A stretch of 64,000 bases of DNA from Octopus sinensis (Eukaryota): NCBI RefSeq assembly GCF_006345805.1, contig NC_043009.1:64666001-64730000 (forward strand), written 5' to 3'. This document shows, piece after piece, positions 34,265-46,200 of the stretch. Made by a program: the position numbers. How positions within the stretch are numbered: position 1 is the stretch's first letter; each line of letters begins with the position of its first letter.

Positions 34265-37200
34265 ATGTATATATATGAGTTGATGCCAGTAGTGCCTGAC
34301 TGGCTCCCATCCCAGTGCCATGTAAAAGGCATCATTCAATCTTGACCAATGCCAGTGGCACATAAAAAGCACCACCCAAGCATGGTCGACGTTAGTGCCG
34401 CCTGACTGGCTCCTGTGCCAGTGACACGTAAAAAGCACCCACTACACTCTTGGAGTGGTTGGTGTTAGGAAGGGAAAAGCTGTAGAAACCTTGCCAGATC
34501 AGATTAGAGCATGGTGTAGCCTACTGGCTCACCAGTCCTCAGTCAAACCGTCCAACCCATGCCAGCAGGGAAAACGGATGTTAAACGATGATGATGATAA
34601 GTTTTCATCTTTAAAACCTTAAATACAAAACCTAAAGAAATATTGACCATCAGGGCACGTAAAAAGCACCATCCGATCGTGGCCGTTTGCCAGCCTCGTC
34701 TGGCACCTGTGCCACGTAAAGAGCACCCACAACACTCATGGAGAGGTTGGCGTTAGGAAGGGTATCCAGCTGTAGAAGCCTTGCCAGATCAGACTGGAGC
34801 CTGGTGCAGCCTCCTGGCTTCCCAGACCCCAGTTGAACCGTCCAACCCATGCTAGCATGGAAAGCGGATGCTAAACGAAGATGATGATGATGATGAATAT
34901 AACGATTCTGTCAGGAAAAGATGCAGCACCAGTAACATTCAGTAGCACTCCTAAAAAATTCACACACACACAGTACATACATACATGCTTAAGTGAGCAC
35001 GCATACATCCATCAATGCAGACCGGTTCTTTTTTGATCGAATGTATTTGTTGTTTAAAAAATGAGATTGGATCTGTCCAAGGTTAATCTTCATTACTCGC
35101 GCACACAGAAATATGTGTGTGTGTGTGTATCATCATCGTCATTTAACGTCCACCTTCCATGCTGGCATGGGTGGGAGATATATATATATATATTCTTTAA
35201 TTCTTTTATTTGTTTCAGTCATTTGACTGTGGCCATGCTGAAGCATCACCTTTAGTCGAACAAACTGACCCCAGGACTTATTCTTTGTAAGCCTAGTACT
35301 TATTCTATCAGTGTCTTTTGCCGAACCACTAAGTCACAAAGATATAAACACATTATCAGTTGCCAAGTGATGTTGGGGGGGACAAACAGAGACACACACA
35401 CACATATACAACGGGCTTCTTTCAGTTTCCGTCTGCTAAATCCACTCACAAGGCTTTTGTCGGCTCAAGGCTATAGTAGAAGACAGTTGCCCAAGGTGCC
35501 TTGAAGTGGGACTGACCTGGAATCATGATTGGTAAGCAAGCTACTTACCGTACAGCCACTCTTGCACCTATATATATATATATATACCTTTGAAATGTTT
35601 TGAGGAAGGTTTACATAATGGATGCATTTCCTAATATGACATAATGAAATTACTGTGTATAGTGCTCAGGTGCACTACAACTCATCAAAGGTGAATGTAC
35701 AGTACATAGAATTATGCACAAAAGTCAGGAAAGTGAACAGTGTATGAGTCATGATATACGTGTGTGCATGCATATGGAGCGGGGGGATATCAGGTGTAGC
35801 ATTGGCGAATTTCAGGAAACAGGGAGGTTTTAAAGGATTACTTTTTTTTTACAGACTCCGATGACTCTGAAGTAGAAACTGTGAACCACACTGACAATGT
35901 TGTAAGTATCTTTTCAATTATTTCATTCAAATTCTTCCCATGAGACCTTTGGTGATTTGCCACGCTTGAGAAGACCTCTCAAGTTGAGCGAAATCTTAGT
36001 CATGGCCAATGCCAGTGTTGCATAACTGGAACGTTGGGCAATATGCTATGCTTGAGAAGACCCCGCCAAGCCAAGTGAAATGCATTCTGCCTGGTGTGCT
36101 AACGGTTCTGCTAGTTCACCACTGCCTTAATCCCAAATTATGTTAATAAAATTTACTTACATCTTCATTTTTTATATTGTCATTTTCTAGATCATCCTCA
36201 TTTTCTTCATCATCTTCATTTTCTGGAAAACAAGATCAAAAGTAGAAATAATACATTTCTAAATCTCTCAGAGAGATTTATACAGTAGTAACATGATAAA
36301 GTGGTGGCATGTTATCAACTTAATGTGACGGTCCCATGAAAGGGAAGAATACTACTGCTATTTAGCCCTAGGAAGCAGCACCACTTCCTGTCAGCCTTGA
36401 CACATTTCCTGTGTCCTATTTTCGAAATCAGTGAATGTATTACACTTGAATTATTATATGTTAACGGAGGCAGATAGACATCAATAGTGAGCAAGCCTTG
36501 CTACTCCAGACTGATGACAAGCAATGACTCAGAAACTAGTCTCTGGATGCTGGCTTTGCTGGGTGGAGATGCTTATCTCCCCATTTGTAAACATAAGGAC
36601 CTGCCTACCTCAGTTGCTATGGCATTGAGGCAGATTGGGCCACCCCCATTAGCAAGGACAAAACCCGATTTAAAACACTTGATGATGATATATATACTGG
36701 TTAGGGATATGAAATCTGGCAGAAACGCTAACAGGCCAGGCAAAACGCTCAGCAGAATTTCGTCTGCCGTTACGTTCTGAGTTCAAATTCCACCGAGGTT
36801 GACTTTGTCTTTCATCCTTTCGGGGTTGATTAAATAAGTGCCAGTTATGCACTGGAGTCGATATAATTGACTTAATCCGTTTGTCTGTCCTTGTTTGTCC
36901 TCTTTGTGTTTAGCCCTTTGTGGGTAGTAAAGAAATAGGTACCTTAGGAGCACACTAGTATAATCCTGGATCTGGCTAACCACAGTGAATGATGTGGAAC
37001 AACAGGAAATTGTTAAAGGTAAACAATCACACAGTATTTCACCTGATGTGTAAATCCTGATTTCACCTCTTTCAATTATACACCATCATCATCGTTTAAT
37101 GTTCGTTTTCCATGCTAGCATGGGTTGGACGGTTCGACCGGGGTCTGGGAAGCCAGGAGGCTGCACCAGGCTCCAGTCAGATCTGGCAGAGTTTCTACAG

Positions 37201-43200: not shown

Positions 43201-46200
43201 GCAGTGGAAGGTTGGCAAAGAAAATTCTGGTACCTCCACCAAAACTACTAAAAGCCATGATGAATCGTTTTCTCCCACAAGCCTTTAGTCCGTCTGGAGC
43301 CATAGTAGAGGGTATTTACCCGAGGCTCCACATAGTGGGGACTGAACCCAAGACCATATGGTTGGGAAGCAAGCTTCTTCACCACACTGCAACATGGGAA
43401 AATATCATCATCATCATTTAATGTCCATTTTTCATGCTGGCATGGGTTGAACATTATCATCATCATCGTTTAACGTCCGTTTTCTGCGCTAGCATGGGTT
43501 GGACGGTTCGACCGGGGTCTGGGAAGCCAGGGGCTGCACCAGGCTCCAGGCTTATCTGGCAGAGTTTCTACAGCTGGATGCCCTTCCTAACGCCAACCAC
43601 TCCGTGAGTGTAGTGGGTGCTTTTTACGTGCCACCTGCACAGGTGTCAGGGGGGTCCGGCATCGGCCACGATCGGTTGGAGCTTTTAACGTGGCACCGGC
43701 ACGGAAGCCAGCCAAGGCGGCACTGGCAACGGCCACTGAAAACTAGTAAGCTGGGAGCTGCACCAGGTCCCAATCTGATTTGGCCTGGTTTCTATGGCTG
43801 GATGCCCTTCTTAATGCCAACCACTCCAAGAGTGTAGTAAGTGCTTTCTACGTGTCACTGGCACGGGTGCCAGTTACGCAACACTGGCATTGGCTATGAT
43901 TTCACTCAGCTTGAGAGGTCTTCCCAAGCGTGGCACATCACCAAAGGTTTCATGGGAAGAATTTGAATGGAAAAATTGAAAAGATACTTACAACATTGTC
44001 AGCGTGGTTCACAATTTCTACATCAGAGTCATCGGAGTCTGTAAAAAAGTAACAAAATAACTTATAAATCATTTAACCTTTACGTGGTTATGTTCTTAAT
44101 GAAGCAGACTACCTGTGTTAGGAAAAGCTGTGGTAAGAAACTCGCTTCACAGCCACATCGTTTCAGGTTCAGTCCTACTGCAGGGCACTTTGGGCAAGTG
44201 TTTTCTACTATAACCCTGGGTCGACCAAAGCCTTGTTAGTGGATTTGGTGAAAAAAAAAACTGAAAGAAACCCCTCATATGTGTGTGTGTGTGTGTTTGC
44301 CCTCACCTGCTGCTTGACAGCCAGTGTTGGTGTGTTTACATCCCTGTAACTAAGTGGTTCAGCAAAAGAGATGGATACAATAAGTATCAAAAATAAATAA
44401 CTACTGGGGTCGATTCACTCGACTAAAGATTCTTCAAGGCAGTACTCCAGCATGGCCACATTCTAATGACTGAAACAAGTTAAAGATACTACAATCAAAA
44501 CCTTGTAGGTTTTTGTAAAATATCTGAAACTTAATAGATTAGGTTTTGTTGTTAAGCATTAAGGTTTGATAGAGCAGACCTATGGCCGAAAGCAGTCCAA
44601 TCATGACCATCAAGAGGTATGCAGGATTATCTGCTTTGTCTTTTCTTTTACAAAAACAGCAGTTATTGGTGAGGGAAGGGGAGTGTCAGCTAAGGCATTG
44701 TTTAGCCCCCACCCCACCCTAGTGAACCCTAATCCAACAGATCATTGAACAATAATAATTTTTCAGCCATGACGACATGACAATCTCGTCATAGTGTATC
44801 TAGAACAACATCATCTAAGGTGTGCTTACTCTTTACTCTTTTACTTGTTTCAGTCATATGACTGCGGCCATGCTGGAGCACCGCCTTTAATCGAGTAACT
44901 TGACCCCGAGACTTATTCTTTTGTAAGCCCAGTACTTATTCTATCGGTCTCTTTTACCGAACCACTAAGTGACGGGGACGTAAACACACCAGCATCGGTT
45001 GTCAAGCAATGCTAGGGGGACAAACACAGACACACAAACACAGACACATATATATATATATACATATATACGACAGGCTTCTTTCAGTTTCCGTCTACCA
45101 AATCCACTCACAAGGCATTGGTCGGCCCGGGGCTATAGCAGAAGACACTTGCCCAAGATGCCACGCAGTGGGACTGAACCCGGAACCATGTGGTTGGTAA
45201 GCAAGCTACTTACCACACAGCCACTCCTGCACCTATGAGTTTTTGCTTGCTGAGTTTTTTCTCTTTTAAAACAATTAGATGTGGTTTGAAAGAGATTTGG
45301 CTGCTATTTCTAGCAGATTGCATGATCATTTAGAAGATCTTTCTGTGGAGGAGGAAATAATTAAAAGAATTTAATTGGATGTGTTTCTCGTTACCAGTTT
45401 CTGTAAAATAGTCATCGAAATTTTCAAATCCGTCTTCATCAATTCGAATACGTTTCCCTTCCAAAATACCCTTTCCTAGGTTTCTGAAAACAACAAAAAT
45501 TAATTAATTTTAACAACACTCAATTAGCAATAATTACAAATATAGTTAATTGTTAATTAATTTTTATGATATAAACATTTTAGTTCCATTTTTTCTTTTT
45601 CCTCTCTGATATCCATTCCACCTGCGCAAGCATGAAGAAATAATAATAATAATAATCCTTTCTACTATAGGCCCAAGGCCTGAAATTTTGGGGGGAGGGG
45701 ACTAGTTAATTACATCACCCCTCCCCCCAGTGTTTCACTGGTACTTAATTTATTGAGTCCAAAAGGATGAGAGGCAAAGTTGACCACAGCTGTATTTGAA
45801 CTTAGAACATAGCAACAGGCAAAGTACTGCTAAGCATTTCATCCGGCATGCTAACAATTCTGCCAGCTTGCCGCCATAATCATCATCATCATCATCGGTA
45901 CTGGCTACGGCCACGTTCGGATAGTTTTCTTGTGTGCCACCAGCACTGGTACCACAAAGATACAAATTCCATTGATGTTCATCTATTTTGATTTGTTTTG
46001 ATTTTCACTTGCCTCAACAGGTCTTCACAAGTGTCACAAGAAGGAAGGTATGCACAGGTGGACTGACTACGTCCCAGGTAGGGGCCACGGGTTATGGCCT
46101 GACTAGTCTTGCCGGGTCTTCGGATGGTGTTTTTATGTGCCACCGACACAGGTGCCAGATGAGGCTGGCGAACAGCCACGATCGGATGGTGTTTGTTATG

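What the first reader, a model, noticed from the sequence alone, without database searches (positions are those of the whole stretch)
35838..44052. Antisense copy of exon 4 inside intron 8 brackets an in-frame block of exons 5-8
Seen: 35838-36029 is an inverted copy of 43870-44052 (acceptor, all of exon 4, donor and about 120 nt of intron 4), ending about 130 nt from the exon 8 donor. Exons 5-8 total 567 nt and start and end in phase 0. Inference: in the pre-mRNA the arms can form about 180 bp of dsRNA. This could mask the exon 4 splice sites, loop out exons 5-8 in frame (exon 4 to 9), or favour back-splicing into a 567-nt circle with a stop-free frame. It could also act as an editing-complementary sequence for ADAR recoding, which is extensive in coleoid cephalopods (established).
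Basis: partly seen in the sequence, partly recalled or inferred. Interest (0 to 1): 0.72.

Follow-up and report, generated by a model that had tools for sequence, protein, structure and literature searches.

The report
Inverted exon copy in octopus CENP-C
An octopus centromere-protein gene carries a real, roughly 185-base backwards copy of one of its own small exons in a later intron, so the transcript can fold into a long double-stranded stretch, but nothing seen here shows that the cell uses it.

Summary
Window 35845-36032 is the reverse complement of 43867-44048: 188 columns, 169 identical, 13 substitutions and one 6-nt gap.

The gene lies on the minus strand. It is the Octopus sinensis CENP-C-like gene, mislabelled "unc-89" in RefSeq. 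Arm B holds 10 nt of acceptor, the 47-nt exon 4, its donor and 125 nt of intron 4. Arm A sits in intron 8, 128 nt past the exon 8 donor. Exons 5-8 total 567 nt and are phase 0 at both ends.

The two arms co-fold into 174 base pairs, -297.5 kcal/mol against -91.4 +/- 4.9 for shuffled sequence.

The region is full of SINE inverted repeats. This pair is 1 of 39, and the only one that touches an exon. Its substitutions show no bias towards keeping the pairs: 5 G.U against 4 A.C. All 11 annotated protein clusters keep exon 4 and exons 5-8.

Best reading: an old local inverted duplication that is tolerated and is probably an incidental ADAR substrate. Recoding, exon skipping and circle formation remain untested. 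No cephalopod genome or RNA data could be searched here.

The parts
43867..44048 (-). Arm B, the sense arm in the pre-mRNA: 10 nt of polypyrimidine tract and AG, exon 4, the donor and the first 125 nt of intron 4
43992..44038 (-). CENP-C-like exon 4, 47 nt, encoding DSDDSDVEIVNHADNV; enters in phase 1 and leaves in phase 0
   Evidence: tblastn at 100% identity to P0001 residues 39-55 and splice sites read directly
35845..36032 (+). Arm A: the inverted copy. It reads as acceptor, exon, donor and intron on the + strand, and is transcribed antisense as part of intron 8
35855..35901 (+). Exon-4 equivalent inside the copy. It differs from exon 4 at 3 of 47 positions and would read DSDDSEVETVNHTDNV
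42399..42487 (-). Exon 5 (89 nt, starts in phase 0)
41169..41222 (-). Exon 6 (54 nt)
37868..38229 (-). Exon 7 (362 nt)
36161..36222 (-). Exon 8 (62 nt, ends in phase 0); its donor is 128 nt from arm A
33791..33846 (-). Exon 9 (56 nt, starts in phase 0); marks the end of the 2314-nt intron 8
43735..43901 (+). 5'-truncated SINE copy in intron 4. Its last 35 nt (43867-43901) lie inside arm B, so the duplication copied part of it
   Evidence: nhmmer with a 10-copy SINE profile, profile positions 68-231, E 1.9e-40; coverage track
35622..35838 (+). Repeat 'X', truncated exactly at the left edge of arm A. About 215 of about 385 nt are present and the remainder is not found beyond the arm
36027..36081 (+). 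Diverged (74.5%) tandem echo of the arm's own inner segment at its right edge

Best explanation
This is a genuine, fairly old local inverted duplication. About 185 bp of the Octopus sinensis CENP-C-like gene was copied backwards into intron 8, 7.8 kb downstream. The copied piece holds the end of intron 3, exon 4, and 125 nt of intron 4 including 35 nt of a resident SINE.

The origin was most likely a replication or repair template switch, or a templated insertion at a break. That event also left a neighbouring repeat truncated.

In the pre-mRNA the two arms can pair. Unspliced, they give 174 bp with a 7834-nt loop. Once introns 4-7 are removed, exon 4 alone gives 46 of 47 nt paired with a 695-nt loop.

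The most likely consequence is that the helix is one more ADAR substrate among the many SINE-derived ones in this gene. Any editing of exon 4 would then be incidental. Splicing is essentially unaffected, because exon 4 has strong sites and is transcribed minutes before its partner. I see no sign of a selected function.

Shown here: the anatomy, the gene model, the pairing capacity and the neutral-looking divergence. Inferred: the mechanism of origin, the timing and what happens to the RNA.
For: - The repeat is real, and it is two-copy in the window.
- Arm B overlaps a SINE by 35 nt, so the copy was made from the genomic intron after that SINE had inserted, not from mRNA.
- Arm A starts where repeat X is cut short. 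No homology continues beyond either end.
- At the one exon site where species differ informatively, the copy has ACT (Thr), like O. bimaculoides. Exon 4 of both O. sinensis and O. vulgaris has Ala. The copy therefore probably predates the O. sinensis / O. vulgaris split. Those two species differ at only 3 of 335 N-terminal residues.
- Of 9 transitions between the arms, 5 give G.U and 4 give A.C (binomial p = 1). Exon and non-exon parts differ equally (3 of 47 against 10 of 135 aligned non-gap columns, Fisher p = 1).
- The pair is 1 of 39 inverted pairs with E <= 1e-5 in 33000-48100, and fourth by bit score.
- All 11 of 11 annotated protein clusters keep exon 4 and exons 5-8.
- Literature, passages read: octopus A-to-I editing is mostly in introns and 3'UTRs where hairpins lie, rarely alters splice sites, and circRNAs are at low levels (PMC9699675). 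Metazoan editing primarily targets dsRNA from young repeats (PMC9989829).
Against: - This is the only one of the 39 pairs that includes an exon, and it has the joint highest identity (89.9%).
- It has persisted across at least one speciation.
- It wraps both splice sites of exon 4.
- It sits in exactly the introns that flank an in-frame block.
- Twelve of the 14 adenosines in exon 4 would recode if edited.
- Annotated proteins are genome-based predictions. They cannot reveal editing, minor isoforms or circles.
- With one species and two arms, the test for selection on pairing has very little power.
Confidence: 0.6

Rival explanations
1. Arm A is a functional editing-complementary sequence. It is retained because it directs ADAR recoding of exon 4 of the centromere protein.
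For: The exon-only duplex pairs 46 of 47 nt at -81.1 kcal/mol, with a loop of only 695 nt once introns 4-7 are gone. There are 14 A's in exon 4; 12 are nonsynonymous if edited and 7 lack a 5' G. Substrates that pair an exon with an intron are the rule in mammals and flies (PMC7192619, passages). The copy outlived a speciation event.
Against: There is no A.C mismatch in the exon part, and no bias towards keeping pairs (5 G.U against 4 A.C). In squid, mature mRNAs can be edited without intronic sequence (PMC7192619). Most octopus editing lies outside coding sequence (PMC9699675). No RNA data were available. CENP-C is not in the neural or cytoskeletal classes where recoding concentrates (PMC9989829 summary).
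Confidence: 0.1
2. The helix regulates splicing. It either sequesters exon 4 or promotes back-splicing of exons 5-8 into a 567-nt circle.
For: Both exon 4 splice sites are inside the helix. The arms lie in introns 4 and 8, flanking a phase-0 block of 189 codons. There is a human precedent: an inverted duplication of CHM exon 12 in the next intron goes with skipping of that exon, with a predicted hairpin (PMC8756506, passages).
Against: The loop here is 7834 nt and holds four exons, against 274 nt in the CHM case. Exon 4 has a long pyrimidine tract and a GTAAGT donor. Masking exon 4 gives frame-shifted products, and the E4-E9 splice needs the buried donor. Four other intron 4 / intron 8 pairs and many competing pairs exist. 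0 of 11 annotated clusters skip anything in this region. Octopus circRNAs are at low levels (PMC9699675).
Confidence: 0.1
3. The 185-bp unit is part of a low-copy mobile element or a captured gene fragment. Under this reading exon 4 itself might be an exonised element rather than the source of a local duplication.
For: Both arms abut repeat fragments. The distal third of the arm is SINE-tail-like. A diverged tandem echo lies at the right edge.
Against: Only two copies are found in 64 kb, and no terminal repeats or target-site duplication are seen at the edges. Exon 4 is coding in O. bimaculoides too. An unnamed homologue at 35% identity aligns straight through the exon-4 segment with only a single one-residue gap there, so the exon looks ancestral.
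Confidence: 0.08
4. The copy is an assembly artefact, such as a chimeric or fold-back read.
For: Inverted duplications are a known artefact of long-read assembly (recalled, not tested here).
Against: The arms differ at 13 substitutions plus a 6-nt gap and have unrelated flanks. The nearest N run is 19423-19522, 16 kb away.
Confidence: 0.03

Closest known systems
Intragenic inverted duplication of CHM exon 12 in human choroideremia (PMC8756506; Summary and passages read)
   Same: A second, inverted copy of an exon with its flanking intron lies downstream in the same transcription unit. A pre-mRNA hairpin that engulfs the exon and its splice sites is predicted. A replication template switch (FoSTeS/MMBIR) is proposed as the origin.
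   Different: The CHM copy is 1752 bp, identical to its source, sits in the very next intron with a 274-nt loop, is a recent pathogenic allele and goes with observed exon skipping. The octopus copy is about 185 bp, 7.6% diverged, four exons and 7.8 kb away, apparently fixed, and no skipping is annotated. Microhomology at its junctions is at most 3-4 nt and is uncertain.
Intronic editing-complementary sequences of ADAR recoding sites (exon-intron substrates, as described in PMC7192619; the individual textbook examples are recalled)
   Same: An intronic stretch downstream is complementary to a coding exon, and pairing is possible only before that intron is removed.
   Different: Classical ECS helices are short, imperfect, site-selective and conserved. 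This one is a long near-perfect copy of the type that gives promiscuous editing. Editing was not tested, and the divergence looks neutral.
Inverted SINE/Alu pairs in introns as ADAR substrates and as drivers of exon circularisation (PMC9989829 and PMC9699675, passages; the Alu-pair and Sry circle literature is recalled)
   Same: Reverse-complementary sequences in the introns flanking a block of exons. This gene also holds 38 other such pairs.
   Different: The arms are not copies of a dispersed element but a unique two-copy segment, and one arm contains a coding exon.
Hairpin-RNA or microRNA genes born by inverted duplication of their target gene (plants and Drosophila; recalled, not checked here)
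   Same: An inverted duplicate of genic sequence yields a long hairpin with perfect homology to the parent mRNA.
   Different: Those hairpins are tight, independent transcription units that produce small RNAs. Here the arms are 7.8 kb apart inside the parent gene, and no small-RNA data were available.

Membership tests
Exon-containing intragenic inverted duplication (CHM exon 12 type) | A second copy of an exon, with flanking intron, in inverted orientation within the same transcription unit | tested here: met
   35845-36032 against 44048-43867, 89.9% over 188 columns; both inside the minus-strand gene
Exon-containing intragenic inverted duplication (CHM exon 12 type) | Predicted pre-mRNA hairpin enclosing the exon and both splice sites | tested here: met
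   174 intermolecular pairs, -297.5 kcal/mol against -91.4 +/- 4.9 for shuffles; acceptor AG and donor GU are paired
Exon-containing intragenic inverted duplication (CHM exon 12 type) | Skipping of the engulfed exon in the mRNA | tested here: inconclusive
   0 of 11 annotated protein clusters lack exon 4. These are genome-based predictions, and no RNA reads could be examined
Exon-containing intragenic inverted duplication (CHM exon 12 type) | Microhomology at the breakpoints | tested here: inconclusive
   A possible (T)ACT overlap at the left junction, if the ancestral repeat X read like its copy at 56297-56357. The right junction has no recoverable target sequence
ADAR editing-complementary sequence | Intronic sequence complementary to the edited exon | tested here: met
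   46 of 47 exon nucleotides paired, -81.1 kcal/mol
ADAR editing-complementary sequence | A-to-I (A-to-G) changes observed in the exon | not testable with these tools
ADAR editing-complementary sequence | Pairing maintained by selection (compensatory or wobble-biased change) | tested here: not met
   9 transitions give 5 G.U and 4 A.C; there are 4 transversions and one 6-nt bulge. Power is low, with one species only
Flanking inverted repeats that drive exon circularisation | Reverse-complementary sequences in the introns on both sides of the circularised exons | tested here: met
   Arm B includes 125 nt of intron 4 and arm A lies in intron 8. Four further SINE pairs have the same geometry
Flanking inverted repeats that drive exon circularisation | Back-splice junction reads | not testable with these tools
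   No RNA data. The literature reports overall low circRNA levels in O. vulgaris (PMC9699675)
Dispersed repeat (SINE or other TE) inverted pair | Many copies of the unit | tested here: not met
   Two copies in the window. Positions 43909-44048 and 35845-35995 match nothing else, and the SINE profile does not hit 35800-36200. Genome-wide copy number was not testable
CENP-C (identity of the host gene) | C-terminal Mif2/CENP-C cupin domain | tested here: met
   PF11699 at E 1.9e-10, 41.3 bits against a cut-off of 29, in the O. vulgaris orthologue P0010. The cupin exons themselves are not inside this window, and the O. sinensis isoform P0001 lacks the domain

The most novel reading that the evidence does not exclude
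A centromere protein gene has kept, through at least one speciation, a backwards copy of its own exon 4. The copy would act as a built-in long-range switch. While intron 8 is unspliced, the copy pairs with exon 4 and lets ADAR rewrite up to 12 codons of the acidic N-terminal linker of CENP-C, or diverts the transcript into a 567-nt open-frame circle. That would be an editing-complementary sequence caught soon after its birth by exon duplication.
Probability: 0.08. Interest if true: 0.6.

Novelty: new member of a known kind. Interest (0 to 1): 0.3.

Why it matters
If the helix forms in vivo, it is a natural, apparently fixed counterpart of the pathogenic CHM exon 12 inverted duplication. It could show how far apart such arms must lie before splicing stops being disturbed.

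If exon 4 is edited through it, it would be a dated example of an editing-complementary sequence arising by inverted duplication of the target exon. A search for that combination of terms found no paper (0 hits; only the Creative Commons and bioRxiv libraries were searched).

As it stands, it is a well-defined test locus rather than a discovery. The host gene, the exon map and the predicted paired bases are now fixed, so one RNA-seq alignment can settle the question.

Tried and rejected
1. One larger inverted duplication. A second 89.9% inverted pair (36793-36941 / 42720-42868) is collinear with the exon-4 pair. However, the sequence between the pairs does not match, exon 8 lies between them on the arm A side, and that pair belongs to a repeat family with at least 10 copies in the window and identities of up to 86.6% between them. 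Rejected.

2. SINE-SINE recombination at the right junction. A 10-copy SINE profile run with nhmmer --max at E <= 10 finds nothing in 35800-36200. A pairwise score of 14 against a shuffle mean of 9.2, sd 1.6, max 15 is not convincing. Not supported.

3. Homology resuming beyond truncated repeat X. The score was 9, against a shuffle mean of 9.8. None found.

4. Rfam at gathering thresholds over 30000-50000 gave 0 matches. ARAGORN over the whole window found 0 genes.

5. Pfam on 16 long ORFs from both strands. 15 had no family. One (39116-39280, +) had a zf-C2HE match at 17.8 bits, below the 30.1-bit cut-off. No second gene was detected that would use the + strand copy as an exon.

6. The listing of cluster members, for the 17-member isoform cluster, could not be made. 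Minor isoforms hidden inside 90% clusters therefore stayed unseen.

7. A search for papers combining 'inverted duplication', 'exon', 'ECS' and 'ADAR' returned 0.

8. The joined spliced model was not searched. Exon 7 and exon 10 were searched singly. The deep HMMER scan used the database protein P0011 of O. bimaculoides.

Genome-wide copy number and presence in other species stayed unchecked.
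Full report
**Observation.** The inverted repeat is real. The repeat finder lists arms 35845-36011 and 43882-44048 (167 nt, 91% complementary). BLASTN of each arm against the window extends the match to 35845-36032 / 44048-43867: 188 columns, 89.9% identity, E 3.6e-70. It finds no third copy. A more permissive self-comparison confirms that 43909-44048 and 35845-35995 match nothing else in the 64 kb. The MAFFT alignment has 169 identical columns, 13 substitutions and one 6-nt gap, giving a K2P distance of 0.076.

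**Host gene.**
- The largest minus-strand exon (37869-38228) hits 11 protein clusters. One is an O. sinensis protein at 100% identity, named "muscle M-line assembly protein unc-89 isoform X9". Nine are O. vulgaris proteins at 98%. One is an O. bimaculoides protein at 89%.
- The O. vulgaris proteins carry the Mif2/CENP-C cupin domain (PF11699, E 1.9e-10, above the cut-off). The gene is therefore a CENP-C homologue and the RefSeq name is a misnomer.
- Mapping P0001 and P0010 back with tblastn and reading the splice sites gives these minus-strand exons: E2 48011-47974, E3 45483-45395, E4 44038-43992, E5 42487-42399, E6 41222-41169, E7 38229-37868, E8 36222-36161 and E9 33846-33791.
- Exons 5-8 are 89+54+362+62 = 567 nt, which is 189 codons (P0001 residues 56-244). 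Exon 5 begins and exon 8 ends on codon boundaries. No new codon would form at an E8-E5 or an E4-E9 junction.
- I did not build or search a joined spliced model. Exon 7 and exon 10 were searched singly.
Arm A ends 128 nt from the exon 8 donor, and arm B covers 125 nt of intron 4.

**Anatomy and origin.**
- Arm B's distal 35 nt (43867-43901) belong to a 5'-truncated SINE copy. A profile built from ten other copies in the window aligns to 43735-43901 (E 1.9e-40). The segment was therefore copied from genomic DNA after that SINE had inserted.
- Arm A begins 3-7 nt after the point where another repeat (X, about 385 nt when full length) is cut off at 35838, with about 215 nt present. The missing part is not found on the other side of the arm.
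- Homology does not resume beyond either edge.
- A 55-nt stretch at the right edge (36027-36081) is a 74.5% echo of the arm's own interior.
- The left junction allows at most a 3-4-nt microhomology.
- This patchwork fits a templated insertion or template switch at a break, as proposed for the human CHM exon 12 inverted duplication (PMC8756506, passages). The mechanism is inferred, not shown.
- The divergence and the unrelated flanks argue against an assembly artefact. Reads could not be checked.

**Age.**
- Exon 4 encodes DSDDSDVEIVNHADNV in O. sinensis and O. vulgaris, and DSDVEIANHTDNV in O. bimaculoides. The copy reads DSDDSEVETVNHTDNV.
- At the His-Ala/Thr position the copy keeps the state seen in O. 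bimaculoides. By parsimony, the copy was made before the Thr-to-Ala change that O. sinensis and O. vulgaris share, and so before those two species split. They differ at 3 of 335 N-terminal residues, against 39 mismatches plus 6 gap columns with O. bimaculoides.
- An unnamed 956-residue homologue (35% identity over 167 residues) aligns straight through the exon-4 segment, with only a single one-residue gap within it. The exon therefore looks ancestral rather than a recently exonised element.

**Pairing capacity.**
- Co-folding the two arms as they appear in the minus-strand transcript gives 174 intermolecular pairs and -297.5 kcal/mol. The net gain over the two monomers is -212.6. One hundred shuffles of arm A gave -91.4 +/- 4.9, with a minimum of -110.4.
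- The acceptor AG and six U of the pyrimidine tract, the whole exon except one U.U mismatch, and the donor are all inside the helix.
- Exon 4 alone against its copy pairs 46 of 47 nt at -81.1 kcal/mol.
- The loop is 7834 nt unspliced. It shrinks to 695 nt if introns 4-7 are already out.

**Context.**
- Between 33000 and 48100 there are 39 inverted pairs with E <= 1e-5. This pair ranks fourth by bit score, has the joint highest identity, and is the only one of the 39 to touch an exon.
- Five pairs, this one included, bridge introns 4 and 8. Intron 8 also pairs with introns 3, 5, 6, 7 and 9.
- Any circle-promoting or looping effect is therefore neither unique to this pair nor free of competition.

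**Test for selection on the helix.**
- Of the 13 substitutions, 9 are transitions. In the RNA, 5 of them give G.U and 4 give A.C (binomial p = 1).
- Three of the 47 exon columns differ, against 10 of the 135 aligned non-gap columns outside the exon (Fisher p = 1).
- None of the A.C mismatches, which are the favoured ADAR context (recalled), lies in the exon.
- The pattern is what neutral decay gives. The power of the test is low.

**Isoform evidence.**
- All 11 of 11 protein clusters contain the exon 4 peptide and the peptides of exons 5, 6, 7, 8 and 9.
- Because the first search used exon 7 as query, I repeated it with exon 10. The same 11 clusters came back and no shorter form appeared.
- Members hidden inside the 17-sequence cluster could not be listed.
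- The isoforms differ downstream, in which of the tandem repeat exons they include.

1. Masking of exon 4. This is structurally possible, but the products (E3-E5 or E3-E9) shift the frame. The partner is transcribed 7.8 kb later than an exon with a long pyrimidine tract and a GTAAGT donor.
2. The in-frame E4-E9 skip. This needs the exon 4 donor that the helix buries, so the two ideas work against each other.
3. Back-splicing of exons 5-8. The geometry fits, but it is shared with four SINE pairs. [quoted passage not shown]
4. ADAR substrate. This is the most natural expectation. Editing in octopus is concentrated in introns and 3'UTRs, where hairpins lie (same paper), and across animals it targets dsRNA from young repeats (PMC9989829, summary and passages). 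Exon 4 has 14 adenosines; 12 would recode if edited and 7 lack a 5' G. Whether any inosine reaches the mature mRNA is unknown. In squid, intronic partners are not required for at least some recoding sites (PMC7192619, passages).

**Verdict.** The structure is real, and the exon-in-a-helix feature is unusual within this locus. It belongs to a known kind: an intragenic inverted duplication that forms a pre-mRNA hairpin. The evidence available favours a tolerated relic that is at most incidentally edited (confidence about 0.6). Functional recoding and splicing control each get about 0.1, a mobile-element origin about 0.08 and an artefact about 0.03. One RNA-seq alignment and one cross-species BLAST would decide. 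Neither could be run here, because no cephalopod genome or transcript collection was available. Supplementary tables of the cited editing studies were not opened and could hold sites in this gene.

Noticed in passing
window 21123-48011, minus strand: The O. sinensis RefSeq product name 'muscle M-line assembly protein unc-89 isoform X9' looks like a misnomer. The O. vulgaris orthologues, 98% identical in exon 7, carry the CENP-C/Mif2 cupin domain PF11699. The cupin exons and the last repeat exon of P0010 (residues 528-697) are not found in window 1-21000, so the 3' end of the gene lies outside the window.
   Followed up: partly
window 32767-32663, 32123-32034, 30625-30539, 26238-26158, 25171-25076, 23658-23530 and 21220-21123 (minus strand): A tandem series of at least seven small exons, each encoding a 27-43-residue unit of the type VPxDxKSSPxRHKKPQPSPTAKxTLKSKS. 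The annotated O. vulgaris isoforms (621-697 aa) differ in which units they include.
   Followed up: no
window 21217-21137 (minus strand): The O. sinensis isoform P0001 ends ...VPSDVPEDKPHRNDTKKLSRHRLRNIQ. The O. vulgaris proteins read the same DNA in another frame (...EDKSSPQRHKKTQPSSTEKHTVRSKS, 21191-21123) and continue to the cupin domain. An alternative junction inside this exon therefore gives a truncated form without the cupin.
   Followed up: no
window 48009-47977 (minus strand): An upstream ATG at 48009, 7 nt before the annotated start at 48002 and in another frame, opens a 10-codon uORF that overlaps the start codon and ends at the TAG at 47979-47977, inside the same exon.
   Followed up: no
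window 36793-36941 and 42720-42868: A second inverted pair with the same 89.9% identity, in introns 7 and 4, collinear with the exon-4 pair. It belongs to a repeat family with at least 10 copies in the window and identities of up to 86.6% between them, so it is probably an independent young pair.
   Followed up: yes
window 33000-48100: High density of a roughly 360-nt SINE-like element with a tail of 47-67-nt tandem units. The SINE profile finds 37 matches at E <= 10 across the window. Together with the other repeat families these give 39 inverted pairs within 15 kb of one pre-mRNA. ARAGORN finds no tRNA-like head.
   Followed up: partly
window 19423-19522: A 100-base run of N, lying inside the CENP-C-like gene region. 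It was left untouched.
   Followed up: no
window 4899-12208: Long microsatellite tracts (TAC, ACAT, TATC and ACATACAT units, up to 147 copies). They create spurious open frames of up to 403 codons on both strands.
   Followed up: yes
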